From the IMG/VR virus record IMGVR_UViG_2681813234_000006, positions 1-11,677 of that record: 11,677 nt of DNA. The stretch is one strand, 5' to 3'. The position numbers and the translations under genes are program-made. Below are positions 3,287-9,030 of the stretch, piece after piece (the first letter of the stretch is position 1; every line of letters starts with the position of its first letter). The notes beneath the pieces are model-generated. The model had not been told where the DNA came from, did not search any database, and saw nothing but the letters and a program-made list of their open reading frames with translations. Origin of the DNA: a virus. Taxonomy: Duplodnaviria; Heunggongvirae; Uroviricota; Caudoviricetes.

Positions 3287-4000
3287 TTAACGCACTCTGA
3301 CTGTATTAATTTCAAAATCATTAATATTTCCGCTATTAAATATAACGAATTTCTTACCCCCACTCCTGTATGATTTCGATAACACCAGACGATCATCATA
3401 ACGCGCAATAATGTAATACCATACATTCTCATAGTGGATCGCCTGATATTCCCTCTTAAACTGTGGTTTGTACCAACCGGCAATAAGAGAGAATGCCCAG
3501 AAATAAATCATAAACCCAGCCATCATGAACTCAATTCGGTGATGACGAATAAAAGACATTTCCGAAAAACATTTGACTGAAACAAGTCTTCTTCCAAACC
3601 TGACAAAAAGCGTGATTGTAAAGGCAGCAAGAATGCAGAAAATCAGTACATCTGGCTCAACATGCTGATGAATTACCGAAAACTCCAGAACAGGTGGAAT
3701 AAAAAGCAGCAATATCGCGAGAAAAAGCCGGATAAAACTCAAATTTTGTATATTGCGCTTTTGTTTTATGCCCAAAAAGAAAACAATACCAACTCCCCAT
3801 CCAATAAGGAATATAACGATAACTGTCACAGCATAAAACAAACTTCGTGCTACATCATCGACACCAGCCCCGACAACCCACCATGGAAAGCCATAGTAAA
3901 ATGAAGTACCCCATCCATAGAAATAAGCGCTTCCCCATCCTAGACAGCCCATATAAGCAACAAAAAGTGAAGAGTTTCTGAGCAGAGCACTGTCATCCAT
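3287..4000 (-). CDS. Polytopic inner-membrane protein of unknown function, AT-rich, first gene after the late promoter/terminator (moron position)
   Basis: 237 aa; about 5 hydrophobic segments rich in aromatic and Gly residues (e.g. GWGSAYFYGWGTSFYYGFPWWVVGAG, AVTVIVIFLIGWGVGIVFFLGI); short hydrophilic C-terminal domain; codon usage visibly AT-biased compared with flanking genes. Confidence 0.7.
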   Translation of the reverse strand: MDDSALLRNSSLFVAYMGCLGWGSAYFYGWGTSFYYGFPWWVVGAGVDDVARSLFYAVTVIVIFLIGWGVGIVFFLGIKQKRNIQNLSFIRLFLAILLLFIPPVLEFSVIHQHVEPDVLIFCILAAFTITLFVRFGRRLVSVKCFSEMSFIRHHRIEFMMAGFMIYFWAFSLIAGWYKPQFKREYQAIHYENVWYYIIARYDDRLVLSKSYRSGGKKFVIFNSGNINDFEINTVRVR

Positions 4001-6691: not shown

Positions 6692-6717
6692 AAAAAACAA
6701 AACCCGCCGTAGCGGGT
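6692..6717 (-). terminator. Rho-independent terminator downstream of the XRE-ImmA gene
   Basis: Stem acccgc (6702-6707) / gcgggt (6712-6717) with 4-nt loop cgta; on the minus strand followed by UUUUGUUUUUU (plus-strand A-tract 6692-6701). Confidence 0.6.
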
Positions 6718-6721
6718 ATGC

Positions 6722-7825
6722 TCAAACAATCTGAAAAATATTTCTTGGATTTGTAATAGGTCGATTGATGGAGAACAACTCACGAATTAAATCTTGACTC
6801 AAGCCAGTTTTCATAAGAATTCTTAACCAAGTTGCATCATCCAGCATATCAATCGCTTCGGACAGCATACTTGGTTCTTCGGGGCGCAAAAGTTCATCAC
6901 CTGGTTCAACTCTCGTGTACCCTCTAGAATTAAGATGCATATAGCCAGTTCTTGCCTGTTCCTGGGTCAATAGTCCTAATGCACTGGCTCGATAAATACA
7001 CATTTTAAGGCTAATTTTCCATCTAAGCTTAAATTCAACCAGAGCACTCCAATCGAATTGCTTACCTCGTATTCGTGGAAATTCTTTAATGAAAGATAGC
7101 CTAGGAACCAATAAGGCGCTAGAAAAGTGATCAGCTTGTGATTCCGTAAGTTTATCACCAGTAGTTATGCCCTCATGCATTACTAAATGCCCTAACTCAT
7201 GACCTAAATCAGAGCGAAATCTACATATGCTTTTTTTTACATTGTTCCTGATAATAACAGGCCTGTTATTGTGAACAGTGAATGCATCAACACGATCATC
7301 GACTCCCGTAACATGCGCAACGATTACCCCCAAACTCTCCGCCAATTTCACCATTGATGATATAGGACCAAGACCTAGATTCCATGCACGGCGACAATCT
7401 TCTGCCACTCGCTCAATATCATTCGGGGTAAGTAATTCGGTTCCTGGGTGCTCTGGTATGTTGACATCAGGGAATTCGATTTCACCTTCAACAGCAGAAA
7501 TTATAATATTAAGAATCTCAGCCCTGGCCAAGACACTATTAGTCAGCGTTTGAGTCCTAGACTTCTTACTCCGAAAATGGCAAACATCGCTTTCCAGAGC
7601 ATATTTTCGCTCAGTAAATAGAAAATCGGACTTAATCATAAGAGCTGAGGCTATTAACTCCAGGCATTGCTCTGATGGCCTAAATCCCTTCTCCAATTTG
7701 CTAACGAATTGCTTTGTTTTGCCAATTTTTTCGGCCAACTCTTCACATGAAAGCCCAACAGCCATTCTTGCTAGTTTGAGCTTATCGCCTCGATACTCAG
7801 TGAAGTTATTCACCTGATGTTCCAT
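6722..7825 (-). CDS. Fusion protein: N-terminal XRE-family helix-turn-helix + ImmA/IrrE-type (M78/COG2856) zinc metallopeptidase
   Basis: 367 aa; N-terminal GDKLKLARMAVGLSCEELAEKIGKTKQFVSKLEKG (XRE HTH pattern); central HExxH motif in SDLGHELGHLVMHEG; ATG at 7823-7825; overlaps the upstream gene by 20 nt; AT-rich. Confidence 0.85.
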   Translation of the reverse strand: MEHQVNNFTEYRGDKLKLARMAVGLSCEELAEKIGKTKQFVSKLEKGFRPSEQCLELIASALMIKSDFLFTERKYALESDVCHFRSKKSRTQTLTNSVLARAEILNIIISAVEGEIEFPDVNIPEHPGTELLTPNDIERVAEDCRRAWNLGLGPISSMVKLAESLGVIVAHVTGVDDRVDAFTVHNNRPVIIRNNVKKSICRFRSDLGHELGHLVMHEGITTGDKLTESQADHFSSALLVPRLSFIKEFPRIRGKQFDWSALVEFKLRWKISLKMCIYRASALGLLTQEQARTGYMHLNSRGYTRVEPGDELLRPEEPSMLSEAIDMLDDATWLRILMKTGLSQDLIRELFSINRPITNPRNIFQIV

Positions 7826-8456
7826 TACTGCTCACATCCAAATTTTTATCCTTCGTACGCCGACGAAGAGACACCTTATTAATCTCCGCTTCACCAGGGA
7901 GTGTGTTACCGTCAAGGGGCATAAGTGGCATTGATGCTGTAGATTGATGAGAAACCATACTAATCTGAGCACCATAGGTATTAAACCCAACAAGAGCCAC
8001 CTCCCAACGAGGCAGTGTGGACTCTAATTCACCATCTCCCTCTTCGGATAAAAATGGCTCCGCTATGACTCGCCATGTAATATCTTGCTCAGCCTCAACA
8101 TCACCAAACAATGAAAGCTGCTCATGCTCTACTTTATTTCGACGCAGGCGATGTTTCTTTTTGGGGTTATTAATGCAATCTTTGGTAAATTGTAGCGGAA
8201 CTTTATTTAAAGCAACTACATAGTCCAACCCCTTGGAAATCATCTTAAGACCAGGAATTGCGCCTTCATTTTGAATAAGATGGTTTCTGACCCAATCATA
8301 AGCCCTTACACCTTCAGACCAGTTGCTGTCTAATACGTGCTTATGATAGTACAACTGCTCAAGTACGTTAGCGATCTCCGCCAACAACTGGCGAACATTG
8401 CTTTCAGCAAGATAAGGTTGAAATTCCCAACAAGGAGCTAACTGATTTTCATTCAT
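7806..8456 (-). CDS. Hypothetical 216-aa protein of unknown function; first gene of the two-gene cassette (candidate effector or toxin)
   Basis: ATG at 8454-8456; TAA stop at 7806-7808 lies inside the next gene's first codons; no recognisable catalytic motif; acidic C-terminal tail; AT-rich codon usage; only a weak SD but a near-consensus promoter upstream. Confidence 0.7.
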   Translation of the reverse strand: MNENQLAPCWEFQPYLAESNVRQLLAEIANVLEQLYYHKHVLDSNWSEGVRAYDWVRNHLIQNEGAIPGLKMISKGLDYVVALNKVPLQFTKDCINNPKKKHRLRRNKVEHEQLSLFGDVEAEQDITWRVIAEPFLSEEGDGELESTLPRWEVALVGFNTYGAQISMVSHQSTASMPLMPLDGNTLPGEAEINKVSLRRRTKDKNLDVSSNGTSGE

Positions 8457-8490
8457 TTCAAGTTTCGCTTTTTTTAGAATTCGTAAACCT

Positions 8491-8520
8491 TATATTTTCG
8501 CATTTTCCTGTTTTTGTCAA
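8491..8520 (-). promoter_or_regulatory. Sigma70 promoter of the two-gene cassette
   Basis: On the minus strand: consensus -35 TTGACA (8520->8515), 17-nt spacer, -10 AAATAT (8497->8492; AATATA with 18-nt spacer is an alternative); located between the upstream terminator and the ATG at 8456. Confidence 0.45.
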
Positions 8521-8530
8521 CCAGACTAAT

Positions 8531-8553
8531 GCAAAAACCCGCCGAAGCGGGTT
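8531..8553 (-). terminator. Rho-independent terminator downstream of hok
   Basis: 7-bp stem aacccgc (8536-8542) / gcgggtt (8547-8553) with loop cgaa; on the minus strand followed by UUUUUGC; the hairpin core is nearly identical to the one at 6702-6717. Confidence 0.6.
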
Positions 8554-8621: not shown

Positions 8622-8777
8622 TTACTCCTCAGGTTCGTAAGCTGTGAAGACAGCGACCTCCGTCTGGTCGGTTCGGATTCGTACCTCGCAGAGGTCTTTC
8701 CTCGTTACCAGTGCCGTCACTATGACGGTTAAACAGATGACGATCAGGGCGATTAACATCGCCTTTTGCTGCTTCAT
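8622..8777 (-). CDS. hokD: Hok/Gef family membrane toxin (type I toxin), HokD/RelF-like
   Basis: 51 aa MKQQKAMLIALIVICLTVIVTALVTRKDLCEVRIRTDQTEVAVFTAYEPEE, differing at one position from HokD/RelF as I recall it; ATG at 8775-8777 with AAGGAG about 9 nt upstream. The track ORF has a 19-codon in-frame upstream extension from 8834. Confidence 0.85.
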   Translation of the reverse strand: MKQQKAMLIALIVICLTVIVTALVTRKDLCEVRIRTDQTEVAVFTAYEPEE

Positions 8778-8834
8778 AGCCTGCTTCTCCTTGCCTTTCG
8801 GCACGTAAGAGGCTAACCTAGATTTGCCGTTCAT

Positions 8835-9030
8835 AGATTGAGCCTCAGATTAATGTTAAGCGTCTTGCAGGACGCGTAATGTTAACTGGGGCTTTTCTCT
8901 ATCTGCCTTTGGTGTTCATGCCTGAGGCAGATAGCCTCAAGCACCCGCAGCAATTCTACTTAAGTTAGATAAGTTTTTCTACGGTATTCTCTCTGCGTCC
9001 CGTAAATAAAGTCTCGGCTCATCATTTTTA
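8835..9030 (-). promoter_or_regulatory. Structured hok upstream/leader region; possible site of hok translational control or an antisense RNA (not demonstrated)
   Basis: 9-bp inverted repeat ctatctgcc (8899-8907) / ggcagatag (8926-8934); additional 7-bp complementarity gcctcag (8842-8848) / ctgaggc (8922-8928); a 9-bp stem-loop ggcgaggga/tccctcgcc (8593-8614) lies just 3' of the hok stop. Confidence 0.3.

What the first reader, a model, noticed from the sequence alone, without database searches (positions are those of the whole stretch)
6692..8553. Self-contained two-gene moron: unknown 216-aa protein plus XRE-HTH/ImmA metallopeptidase fusion, with its own promoter and terminator
Between hok and the nin-type genes sits an AT-rich cassette with a consensus -35 (TTGACA) promoter, a 216-aa gene with no recognisable motif, a 20-nt overlapping XRE-HTH + ImmA/IrrE (HExxH) fusion gene, and a strong intrinsic terminator. 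HTH-plus-COG2856-peptidase proteins are known as proteolytic switches (ImmR/ImmA of ICEBs1, IrrE/DdrO, CapH/CapP of CBASS) and as predicted antitoxin-like partners of diverse toxins. A phage-carried, insulated module of this shape is a plausible undescribed anti-phage defence or toxin-regulator pair, with the 216-aa protein as effector and the fusion as sensor/regulator. The functional assignment is inference.
Basis: partly seen in the sequence, partly recalled or inferred. Interest (0 to 1): 0.85.

Follow-up and report, generated by a model that had tools for sequence, protein, structure and literature searches.

The report
Known RosmerTA toxin–antitoxin cassette in prophage
The two-gene cassette is real and self-contained, but it is an already catalogued RosmerTA toxin–antitoxin/anti-phage module whose toxin is a relative of the experimentally proven Vibrio toxin Vmi480, so it is an ordinary member of a known family rather than an undescribed system.

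Summary
On the minus strand a 216-aa gene (7806-8456) overlaps by 20 nt a 367-aa XRE-HTH + M78 (HExxH) peptidase gene (6722-7825). The pair is AT-rich, has a TTGACA -35 upstream and an intrinsic terminator downstream, and lies between hokD and a DUF968 gene of a Rac-like E. coli prophage.

The interpretation (toxin/effector plus regulator, probably defence) is right in kind, but the system is not undescribed. PADLOC calls the pair RmrT (PDLC03929) and RmrA (PDLC03943), which is RosmerTA (Millman 2022). The toxin is homologous to Vmi480 of Vibrio mimicus (hhalign probability 97.7%). The antitoxin is 46% identical to a Vmi470-type partner. Luo 2015 showed that Vmi480 kills E. coli and that Vmi470 neutralises it.

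The pair is syntenic in all 12 other loci where I recorded the downstream gene, from Enterobacterales to Alphaproteobacteria, and occurs in 237 of 5,426 complete E. coli genomes.

What remains open: how the toxin acts (soluble, no Pfam match, no convincing structural match), what triggers it, and whether this allele defends against phage.

New details found here: the cassette is bracketed by a duplicated hok terminator hairpin; another RosmerTA subtype occupies the same slot in a different strain; and a repeated GTTGACAAA-like motif near the promoter is conserved from Vibrio to E. coli.

Low interest (0.22); already known.

The parts
6699..8552 (-). Whole RosmerTA cassette, including the two copies of the terminator-hairpin repeat that bracket it (repeat unit plus cargo = 1,835 bp).
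   Evidence: Alignment with an empty hokD|DUF968 site (L013) and with an alternative cargo (L014) places both junctions inside the hairpin AAAACCCGCCGnAGCGGGT. GC is 41.6% against 51.4% in the left flank.
8534..8552 (-). Upstream copy of the hairpin repeat. It is the intrinsic terminator of the hokD unit and insulates the cassette from upstream transcription.
   Evidence: Terminator-like site 8553..8536(-); -15.1 kcal/mol, z = -3.8. It is the only copy present at the empty site.
8513..8522 (-). GGTTGACAAA: the -35 hexamer TTGACA (8520..8515) embedded in repeat motif 1, a candidate RmrA operator half-site.
   Evidence: Read directly. The motif GTTKACRRA lies at -65 from the ATG in the window and in L002, L003, L007 and L011. 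It is also present upstream of the toxin gene in L008, L009, L010, L012 and L015.
8492..8497 (-). Most likely -10 element, AAATAT, 17 nt after the -35. It is weak (3 of 6 matches, with A2 and T6 kept).
   Evidence: Sequence. CGAAAATAT is invariant among the enterobacterial cassettes, whereas positions 4-6 of the alternative TATAAG vary. The consensus scan did not call it.
8480..8488 (-). GTTTACGAA: second copy of the repeat motif, 33 nt downstream of the first and between the -10 and the ATG. It is a candidate operator overlapping the transcription start.
   Evidence: Direct repeat D1. Conserved at -32 in five loci. The equivalent GTTTACA lies about 32 nt after the first copy upstream of vmi480.
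7806..8456 (-). rmrT: 216-aa toxin of the Vmi480 family (PADLOC RmrT PDLC03929, PHROG 5786). It is soluble and acidic (pI 5.45), with no TM segment. The last ~40 residues are modelled with low confidence.
   Evidence: Homology to Vmi480. AF2 model.
7806..7825 (-). 20-nt overlap between the end of rmrT and the start of rmrA, consistent with translational coupling.
   Evidence: ORF coordinates and junction sequence. The same 20-nt overlap occurs in L003 and L007, and a 35-nt overlap in L002.
6722..7825 (-). rmrA: 367-aa antitoxin/regulator made of XRE-type HTH, a linker, an M78 Zn-peptidase and a C-terminal domain (PADLOC RmrA PDLC03943).
   Evidence: It is 46% identical to the Vmi470-type partner and 29% identical to the verified Millman RmrA.
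7616..7789 (-). HTH DNA-binding domain of RmrA (residues ~13-70).
   Evidence: Pfam HTH_3/HTH_31. Similar to 434 repressor and SinR among solved structures.
6983..7300 (-). M78/ImmA-IrrE peptidase domain of RmrA (residues 176-281). HELGH is at nt 7201-7187.
   Evidence: Pfam PF06114. H209, E210, H213, E228, A231, F234, S236, A237, L239 and P241 are invariant in 8 RmrA sequences.
6692..6717 (-). The cassette's own intrinsic terminator (hairpin 6717..6702 plus T-tract), which is also the downstream copy of the hairpin repeat (6699-6717).
   Evidence: -15.3 kcal/mol, z = -4.0. A similar terminator follows rmrA in L007 and L014.

Best explanation
The cassette is a RosmerTA-type, toxin-first, two-gene toxin–antitoxin / anti-phage module of the Vmi480/Vmi470 subtype. 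It is carried as a moron in the hokD|DUF968 slot of a Rac-like E. coli prophage.

Proposed working, with the basis of each step marked:
1. In the lysogen the operon is transcribed from its own promoter. The upstream hok terminator and its own terminator insulate it. The anatomy is shown here; expression is inferred.
2. RmrT (216 aa) is a soluble growth-arresting or lethal protein. This is shown for the homologue Vmi480 and inferred for this allele.
3. RmrA neutralises RmrT, and its translation is coupled to that of rmrT by the 20-nt overlap. Neutralisation is shown for Vmi470. Coupling is inferred from the overlap.
4. RmrA's N-terminal HTH probably represses the operon by binding the two GTTGACAAA-like direct repeats, which overlap the -35 and the transcription start. 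This is inferred from motif conservation.
5. RmrA's intact Zn-peptidase site, together with host ClpP/ClpX, probably keeps RmrT inactive or low by proteolysis. The ClpP/ClpX dependence is shown for other members of the class (E. coli E101, S. pneumoniae spr1630, Pectobacteriaceae). For this allele it is inferred.
6. Infection by some phages disturbs this control and frees RmrT, which stops the infected cell (abortive infection, narrow spectrum). Defence is shown for other RosmerTA subtypes only.

The toxin's biochemical target is unknown. Unlike Gordonia phage Kita RmrT, it has no membrane segment.
For: Family assignment:
- PADLOC RmrT PDLC03929, E 1.4e-24, near full length; RmrA PDLC03943, E 1.5e-105.
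- All 52 members of the toxin family match only PDLC03929.
- All RmrA partners match PDLC03943 best, at 345-397 bits against about 221-256 for the next model.

Link to a validated TA:
- P0179 carries the identifier VMD_06480, which is Vmi480.
- Against our toxin it gives BLASTP E 5e-16 and hhalign probability 97.7% over 179 columns.
- It matches only PDLC03929.
- The near-identical module in L015 has a 198-aa toxin, a 5-bp gap and a 362-aa antitoxin, exactly as Luo 2015 (PMC4671572) describes. Its antitoxin is 46% identical to ours.

Literature on the class:
- Vmi480 is lethal alone and is rescued by Vmi470; vmi470 cannot be deleted alone.
- RosmerTA defends against phage, and a ΔrmrA construct could not be transformed.
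- Kita RmrTA defends against Bas54 and Bas59.
- ClpP/ClpX dependence.

- Synteny: the toxin gene lies immediately upstream of a 362-376-aa HTH+M78 gene in 11 other loci of this family.
- The peptidase active site is invariant.
- Promoter and operator motif conservation.
- The cassette is mobile and discrete: empty site, alternative RosmerTA cargo and hairpin repeats, plus different prophage slots and non-phage contexts.
- It neighbours other defence genes in two loci: NACHT in L007 and Abi_2 in L010.
Against: - No experiment exists on this E. coli allele. I found no paper that tests it.
- Our toxin is only 26% identical to Vmi480, and it is unrelated to the RmrT that Millman verified for defence. 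The anti-phage activity of this subtype is therefore extrapolated from other subtypes.
- RosmerTA homologues tested in S. thermophilus were ineffective against most phages.
- The -10 element is weak and the promoter scan did not call a promoter.
- The operator motif was defined post hoc, contains the -35 consensus, and also occurs next to a different RosmerTA subtype. It may be just a promoter or module border.
- The role of the peptidase in neutralisation and the ClpP link are untested for this subtype. Rousset's E101 toxin is stated to be 33% identical to Vmi480, but I could not obtain its sequence.
Confidence: 0.82

Rival explanations
1. The cassette is purely an addiction or stabilisation module. 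The pair is a toxin–antitoxin that only stabilises the prophage, or itself, by post-segregational killing, and it has no role in phage defence.
For: - Vmi480/Vmi470 was characterised only as a TA on a mobilisable genomic island.
- Antitoxin essentiality and the ClpX/ClpP dependence fit an addiction module.
- It sits next to hok/sok, another addiction-type module.
- RosmerTA homologues gave little or no protection in S. thermophilus.
Against: - Other RosmerTA subtypes with homologous RmrA proteins do protect against phages.
- The cassette occupies classic prophage moron and defence slots: between Q and the lysis genes, and in the nin region beside NACHT or Abi_2 genes.
- The two roles are not mutually exclusive.
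Confidence: 0.25
2. It is an ImmR/ImmA-like or CapH/CapP-like proteolytic regulatory switch. In this reading the HTH-peptidase fusion controls prophage induction or another operon in response to DNA damage, and the 216-aa protein is a non-toxic accessory or sensor.
For: - The M78 peptidase domain matches capP (E 1.9e-14) and the HTH matches capH (E 9.9e-6) in PADLOC.
- The HTH resembles phage repressors.
- Ernits et al. suggest an ImmR-like HTH-cleavage mechanism for RmrA.
Against: - The full-length match to RmrA models is far stronger (351 bits against 52 for capP).
- HTH and peptidase are fused in one protein here, not split between two.
- No CBASS or ICE genes are adjacent.
- The prophage has its own RacR/YdaS/YdaT switch.
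- Otherwise similar prophages lack the cassette entirely, so it is not part of the core lysis–lysogeny circuit.
- A homologue of the 216-aa protein is lethal when expressed alone.
Confidence: 0.05
3. It is an inactive remnant: the genes are decaying cargo with no current function.
For: Frameshifted or truncated toxin copies exist in some genomes (P0012-P0014, P0017-P0021).
Against: - Both ORFs are intact here and annotated as intact CDS in all listed genomes among the 237 that carry the cassette.
- Catalytic residues are invariant.
- Many columns of the toxin are conserved across phyla.
- The promoter leader is conserved.
Confidence: 0.03

Closest known systems
Vmi480/Vmi470 toxin–antitoxin of Vibrio mimicus MGIVmi1 (Luo et al. 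2015, PMC4671572). vmi480 is the counterselection marker of plasmids pLP11 and pLP12.
   Same: - Same toxin family: BLASTP E 5e-16, hhalign probability 97.7%, and both match only PADLOC PDLC03929.
- Orthologous antitoxin: the Vmi470-type partner in L015 is 46% identical to ours over 347 residues, and both match PDLC03943 best.
- Same toxin-first order.
- Same promoter layout, with GGTTGACAAAAAC at the -35 and a second GTTTAC copy about 32 nt downstream.
   Different: - The toxin is only 26% identical and is 18 residues longer, with a longer acidic insert and C-terminal tail.
- The genes overlap by 20 nt here instead of being separated by 5 bp.
- It is carried by a lambdoid prophage rather than a mobilisable genomic island.
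- This E. coli allele has not itself been tested.
RosmerTA defence system as defined and verified by Millman et al. 2022 (E. coli OLC-716 RmrT/RmrA).
   Same: - Same two-gene, toxin-first architecture.
- RmrA is homologous (29% identity, E 3e-35, full length) with the same HTH + M78 organisation.
- Both pairs are recognised by PADLOC RosmerTA models.
   Different: - The toxins are unrelated in sequence (BLASTP E 9.4; hhalign probability 0.4%) and fall in different models (PDLC03929 against PDLC03935).
- The anti-phage phenotype was shown for the OLC-716 subtype, not for this one.
RosmerTA of Gordonia phage Kita (Ernits et al. 2023, PMC10440598).
   Same: It is phage-borne, pairs an RmrA protease-type antitoxin with a toxin that has no known domain, and gives narrow-spectrum defence.
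   Different: The Kita toxin has a predicted membrane-localised C-terminal region and depolarises the membrane. Our toxin has no hydrophobic segment (maximum 19-residue Kyte-Doolittle score 0.95), so it probably acts differently.
E. coli E101 prophage TA (E101_02645/02644, Rousset et al. 2021) and S. pneumoniae spr1630/spr1629.
   Same: - They have the same class of HTH + Zn-peptidase antitoxin with a domain-less toxin.
- The E101 proteins are reported as 33% and 42% identical to Vmi480 and Vmi470.
- Our RmrA matches the NCBIfam 'spr1629 family repressor/antitoxin' model at E 2.8e-45, below its cut-off.
- These systems make clpP or clpX essential.
   Different: I could not obtain the sequences of the E101 and spr1630 toxins, so their membership in the PDLC03929 subtype and ClpP dependence for this allele are both untested.
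ImmR/ImmA (ICEBs1), DdrO/IrrE (Deinococcus) and CapH/CapP (CBASS).
   Same: They share the COG2856/M78 metallopeptidase with HExxH and a downstream Glu ligand, working together with an XRE-type HTH.
   Different: - In those systems the HTH repressor and the protease are separate proteins, and the output is de-repression of other genes. Here the two are fused and paired with a toxin.
- No ICE, radiation-response or CBASS genes are nearby.

Membership tests
RosmerTA (RmrT/RmrA) | An antitoxin, RmrA, with an N-terminal HTH and an M78/ImmA-IrrE Zn-peptidase domain. | tested here: met
   Pfam HTH_3 + Peptidase_M78. PADLOC RmrA PDLC03943 at E 1.5e-105, covering residues 11-350 of 367. HExxH and the Glu ligand are invariant.
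RosmerTA (RmrT/RmrA) | An adjacent, co-directional partner gene recognised by a catalogued RmrT profile. | tested here: met
   PADLOC RmrT PDLC03929 at E 1.4e-24, residues 7-206 of 216. The genes overlap by 20 nt. All 52 family members match the same model.
RosmerTA (RmrT/RmrA) | The pair is conserved as a unit across genomes. | tested here: met
   11 other loci of this toxin family, from Enterobacterales, Vibrio-type and Alphaproteobacteria sources plus metagenomes, keep the toxin gene directly upstream of the HTH-M78 gene. The same slot in L014 holds another RosmerTA subtype with the same gene order.
RosmerTA (RmrT/RmrA) | The toxin is toxic alone and is neutralised by RmrA. | not testable with these tools
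   Shown experimentally for the homologous pair Vmi480/Vmi470 (PMC4671572), but not for this allele.
RosmerTA (RmrT/RmrA) | It confers resistance to phage infection. | not testable with these tools
   Shown for other subtypes. I found no test of the PDLC03929 subtype in the library.
Vmi480 toxin family (PADLOC PDLC03929) | Significant full-length sequence homology to Vmi480 (VMD_06480). | tested here: met
   BLASTP E 5e-16 with 26% identity over 176 residues. hhalign probability 97.7%, E 1.9e-12, over 179 columns. Vmi480 was identified by its name tag 671076.VMD_06480.
Vmi480 toxin family (PADLOC PDLC03929) | A cognate antitoxin of the Vmi470 type (PDLC03943). | tested here: met
   46% identity, E 3e-122. 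PDLC03943 is the best model for every partner.
CapH/CapP (CBASS regulator) and ImmR/ImmA | A separate HTH repressor and a separate M78 protease, located next to the operon they regulate (CBASS or ICE genes). | tested here: not met
   HTH and peptidase are fused in one 367-aa protein. capP and capH match only as sub-domains at 52 and 25 bits, against 351 bits for RmrA. No CBASS or ICE genes are in the neighbourhood.
PD-(D/E)xK restriction-endonuclease-like nucleases (considered for the toxin) | A convincing fold match plus the catalytic D...(D/E)xK residues on the core strands. | tested here: inconclusive
Membrane-depolarising RmrT (Kita type) | A predicted transmembrane or membrane-associated segment. 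| tested here: not met
   Maximum 19-residue Kyte-Doolittle hydropathy is 0.95 and GRAVY is -0.52.

The most novel reading that the evidence does not exclude
The Vmi480-family RmrT may be an enzyme with a fold not yet seen in solved structures, possibly a distant restriction-endonuclease-like nuclease. Its control may need both the fused peptidase of RmrA and host ClpP/ClpX, with RmrA binding a GTTGACAAA direct-repeat operator that is conserved from Vibrio to E. coli. In addition, the hok terminator hairpin may serve as a recombination site at which alternative RosmerTA alleles are swapped in E. coli Rac/Qin-like prophages.
Probability: 0.3. Interest if true: 0.5.

Novelty: already known. Interest (0 to 1): 0.22.

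Why it matters
It matters mainly for annotation. In RefSeq the two genes are labelled 'hypothetical protein' and 'helix-turn-helix domain-containing protein' in 237 complete E. coli genomes. They can be relabelled as a RosmerTA module of the Vmi480/Vmi470 subtype.

The mechanism of RosmerTA is still unknown: the toxin's target, the role of the peptidase, the ClpXP link and the phage trigger. A soluble, widespread E. coli allele of a toxin already used as a genetic counterselection marker would be a convenient model for that question.

The shared insertion point, with its duplicated terminator hairpin, shows at small scale how defence cargo is exchanged at one prophage slot.

None of this changes current understanding.

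Tried and rejected
- Direct similarity of the 216-aa protein to the Millman-verified RmrT: none. The link to validated biology had to come through Vmi480 instead.
- Pfam and NCBIfam on the toxin, and Pfam on all 52 family members at E up to 1: only scattered noise.
- Solved-structure sequence search with the family profile: nothing.
- Deposited phage genomes: no match by megablast or tblastn.
- Millman Table S11: I looked for carrier strains (E. coli 042, ABU 83972, VR50 and others), but the held copy is truncated and lists none of them.
- pLP12 (KT326153) is not in the collections. The Piotrowski 2009 paper on spr1630 is not held.
- The genome-contig scan failed with the broad alignment and gave only 2 loci with the narrow one.
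- The idea that the flanking hairpin repeat travels with the cassette everywhere was rejected. It is specific to the E. coli hok slot, and other loci only have a similar terminator after rmrA.
- PADLOC scan of other unannotated window ORFs: only the DNA methyltransferase matched.
Full report
1. WHAT IS THERE

All genes in this part of the window are on the minus strand.
- A 216-aa ORF runs 7806..8456 and a 367-aa ORF runs 6722..7825. They share 20 nt (7806-7825).
- The 367-aa protein has an XRE-type HTH (Pfam HTH_3, residues 16-62) and an M78/ImmA-IrrE peptidase domain (PF06114, residues 176-281). The HELGH motif is at residues 209-213.
- The 216-aa protein has no Pfam or NCBIfam match.
- Upstream on the minus strand, in order: the hok stop codon; a terminator hairpin (8553..8536); TTGACA (8520..8515); a weak -10 (AAATAT after 17 nt, or TATAAG after 20 nt); then the ATG at 8456, with no obvious Shine-Dalgarno sequence.
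- Downstream of the second gene lies a hairpin plus T-run (6717..6702).
- Both hairpins fold at about -15 kcal/mol with z of about -4 against shuffles.
- The cassette is 41.6% GC, against 51.4% for the DUF968/RusA/Q side.
- The consensus promoter scan did not call the promoter, because of the poor -10.

The window is 100% identical to a Rac-like lambdoid prophage of E. coli N18-04097 integrated beside yccA. The local gene order there is hokD, the pair, a hypothetical gene, DUF968, RusA, Q. Rfam finds sok next to hok.

The one correction is that only the -35 is consensus.

2. WHAT IT IS

PADLOC recognises both proteins. The 216-aa protein matches RmrT model PDLC03929 (E 1.4e-24, residues 7-206). 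The 367-aa protein matches RmrA model PDLC03943 (E 1.5e-105) and thirteen other RmrA models. capP and capH match only as weak sub-domain hits.

RmrT and RmrA are the toxin and antitoxin of RosmerTA. Millman et al. [quoted passage not shown] Ernits et al. 2023 confirmed the ImmA-type domain as the antitoxin for diverse RmrT toxins, and showed narrow-spectrum defence for the pair from Gordonia phage Kita.

Our RmrA is homologous over its full length to the RmrA that Millman verified (E. coli OLC-716; 29% identity, E 3e-35). Our toxin is unrelated to the OLC-716 toxin (BLASTP E 9.4; hhalign probability 0.4%), which belongs to a different PADLOC model (PDLC03935). RosmerTA is by definition a conserved antitoxin paired with interchangeable toxins.

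3. THE TOXIN FAMILY AND ITS VALIDATED MEMBER

- The word-indexed search found only Enterobacterales relatives at 61% identity or more.
- An exhaustive profile search of 1.84 billion cluster representatives found a small family: 59 representatives at E up to 1e-3, nearly all single-domain proteins of about 190-225 aa.
- Members come from Enterobacterales, Vibrio, Aeromonas, Pseudomonas, Shewanella, Pseudoalteromonas, Allosphingosinicella, and from plasmids.
- All 52 aligned members match PADLOC PDLC03929 and no other model.
- One cluster member, P0179 (198 aa), carries the identifier 671076.VMD_06480 and accessions from V. mimicus VM573 and V. anguillarum 775. This is Vmi480.
- Vmi480 aligns to our protein at BLASTP E 5e-16 (26% identity over 176 residues) and to our clade's profile at hhalign probability 97.7% over 179 columns. 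It matches only PDLC03929.
- A contig carrying a protein that differs from Vmi480 at two positions (L015) shows a 198-aa gene, a 5-bp gap and a 362-aa HTH+M78 gene. This matches Luo et al. 2015 exactly.
- That antitoxin is 46% identical to ours (E 3e-122) and also matches PDLC03943 best.

Luo et al. showed that Vmi480 alone is lethal to E. coli, that co-expressed Vmi470 abolishes the lethality, and that vmi470 cannot be deleted unless vmi480 is deleted too. vmi480 is used as a counterselection marker. So this toxin subtype already has a validated member.

4. IS THE PAIR A UNIT?

In all 12 other loci where I recorded the downstream gene, a toxin gene lies directly upstream of, and co-directional with, a 362-381-aa HTH+M78 gene. 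Eleven of those loci carry this toxin family, and L014 carries another RosmerTA subtype.

| Locus | Source | Position of the pair |
|---|---|---|
| L002 | Limnobaculum | between Q and the holin |
| L003-L006 | Serratia | between Q and the holin |
| L007 | enterobacterial prophage | between λP-like and NinG, followed by a NACHT gene |
| L008 | Allosphingosinicella | non-phage context |
| L009 | metagenome | non-phage context |
| L010 | metagenome | after an Abi_2 gene |
| L015 | Vibrio-type | the vmi480/vmi470 module |
| L014 | E. coli | same hokD/DUF968 slot, other RosmerTA subtype |

Every RmrA partner of this toxin family matches PDLC03943 best, at 345-397 bits against about 221-256 for the runner-up. 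Toxin and antitoxin therefore co-diversify as a cognate pair. The peptidase residues H209, E210, H213 and E228, and the A231/F234/S236-A237/L239/P241 signature, are invariant. So are F84-R85 in the linker between the HTH and the peptidase.

5. THE CASSETTE AS A MOBILE UNIT

The cassette occurs in 237 of 5,426 complete E. coli genomes. The genes are annotated only as 'hypothetical protein' and 'helix-turn-helix domain-containing protein'. It is absent from deposited phage genomes.

Its flanks match in 4,782 genomes. In many of the listed prophages hokD and the DUF968 gene are contiguous (an empty site). Qin-type prophages have rem in the slot. Strain GPEC505-623 carries a different two-gene cargo there, and PADLOC identifies that cargo as another RosmerTA subtype (RmrA PDLC03947, E 5.5e-102; toxin weakly PDLC03933).

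Alignment of occupied and empty sites shows that the empty site has one hok terminator hairpin. Both occupied sites have that hairpin at each end of the cargo. In the window the copies of AAAACCCGCCGnAGCGGGT are at 6699-6717 and 8534-8552, 1,835 bp apart.

This duplication is specific to the hok slot. Elsewhere the cassette simply ends in a similar terminator. The likely cause is recombination between the cassette's own terminator and the near-identical hok terminator (inference).

6. REGULATORY DNA

- The 68 nt upstream of the ATG are 82-94% identical among cassettes whose toxins are only 61-94% identical.
- A motif, GTTKACRRA, occurs twice as a direct repeat. One copy overlaps the -35 (8521..8513). 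The other lies 33 nt downstream, between the -10 and the ATG (8488..8480).
- One or two copies lie upstream of the toxin gene in all the other loci examined. These include the distant ones (L008-L010, L012) and vmi480, which has GGTTGACAAAAAC followed about 32 nt later by GTTTACA.
- Of 19 occurrences in 179 kb (both strands), 16 fall in the nine 200-nt upstream windows.

Caveats: I defined the motif after seeing the data. It contains the σ70 -35 consensus. The enterobacterial loci are not independent. The different RosmerTA subtype in L014 also has TCTGGTTGACAAA at its border. I treat it as a candidate RmrA operator, not as a demonstrated one.

7. THE TOXIN'S ACTIVITY

- RmrT is acidic (pI 5.45) and hydrophilic, with no membrane segment. 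This differs from the membrane-depolarising Kita toxin.
- With a 32-sequence alignment, AlphaFold2 gives pLDDT 71.7 and pTM 0.67. The fold is two long N-terminal helices followed by six β-strands and one short helix. The last ~40 residues are modelled with low confidence and have almost no assigned secondary structure.
- Foldseek finds nothing significant in the PDB or BFVD.
- The conserved residues (D43, W46, G49, E110, F117, R129, E133) do not map onto a PD-(D/E)xK motif.

The toxin's target is unknown. 'Nuclease-like' is only a weak lead.

8. MECHANISM

Established for homologues:
- the toxin is lethal and the antitoxin neutralises it;
- several RosmerTA-class toxins make ClpP or ClpX essential (E. 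coli E101, whose toxin is reported as 33% identical to Vmi480; S. pneumoniae; Pectobacteriaceae);
- other subtypes give narrow-spectrum phage defence.

Shown here:
- family membership;
- intact catalytic site;
- conserved synteny, overlap and promoter;
- insulation by two terminators;
- mobility of the cassette.

Inferred:
- autorepression through the HTH;
- neutralisation that involves the peptidase and ClpXP;
- release of the toxin on infection (abortive infection).

Rival readings: an addiction-only module (0.25, and not exclusive of defence), an ImmR/ImmA-like regulatory switch (0.05), and a decaying remnant (0.03).

9. VERDICT

It is nevertheless a catalogued RosmerTA module of the Vmi480/Vmi470 subtype, so it is already known. 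What remains open is the biochemistry of the toxin and of the RosmerTA switch, which is an open question for the whole family rather than for this locus. Interest is 0.22.

Noticed in passing
window 6699-6717 and 8534-8552; L013 (empty site); L014: The hokD|DUF968 slot of Rac/Qin-like E. coli prophages is a variable cargo site. It is empty in many genomes, holds rem in Qin-type prophages, holds this cassette in 237 genomes, and holds a second, different RosmerTA subtype (204-aa toxin plus 381-aa RmrA, PDLC03947) in strain GPEC505-623. Both RosmerTA cargos are bracketed by a duplicated hok terminator hairpin, which suggests exchange by recombination at the hairpin.
   Followed up: partly
window 8513-8521 and 8480-8488 (minus strand); L002, L003, L007-L012, L015 upstream of the toxin genes: A GTTKACRRA motif, usually present as two direct repeats about 31-33 nt apart (one on the -35 and one after the -10), is conserved upstream of Vmi480-family toxin genes from Vibrio to E. 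coli and Alphaproteobacteria. It is a candidate RmrA operator. The motif was defined post hoc.
   Followed up: partly
window 7570-7575 (RmrA residues F84-R85, within the conserved CHFR motif): An invariant Phe-Arg lies in the linker between the HTH and the peptidase of all eight aligned RmrA proteins, including the distant Millman RmrA. It could be structural, or it could be a self-cleavage site like the ImmR and DdrO cleavage sites. Nothing tested here distinguishes the two.
   Followed up: no
window 3287-4000 (minus strand): A 237-aa ORF in the most AT-rich part of the window (36-40% GC), lying between the Q antiterminator gene and a type II DNA methyltransferase (1680-2765, PADLOC MTase_II, E 8e-153). 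The sequence looks multi-pass hydrophobic. It is annotated as hypothetical and has no PADLOC match. It may be another moron.
   Followed up: partly
L007 8049-9923; L010 2872-3828: In other genomes the RosmerTA pair sits directly beside other defence-type genes: a NACHT/NB-ARC protein in L007 and an Abi_2 protein in L010. This is consistent with location in a defence island.
   Followed up: no
window 8622-8946 (minus strand): A complete hokD/sok type I toxin–antitoxin (Pfam HOK_GEF, E 2.8e-21; Rfam sok, 111.7 bits) lies immediately upstream. Two unrelated toxin–antitoxin modules are therefore adjacent in this prophage.
   Followed up: yes
P0012, P0013, P0014, P0017-P0021 (homologues in other genomes): Several genomes (Salmonella, Plesiomonas, E. 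coli) carry frameshifted or truncated copies of the toxin gene, which suggests the toxin is recurrently inactivated.
   Followed up: no
window 7806-7930 (RmrT residues ~176-216): The C-terminal ~40 residues of RmrT are modelled with low confidence (mean pLDDT about 33-65), yet within the enterobacterial clade they keep conserved residues (LP.EAEI...LRRR.KD.DLDV..NGTSG). This could be a degron or a substrate segment for the peptidase, relevant to the ClpP/ClpX dependence reported for this class.
   Followed up: no
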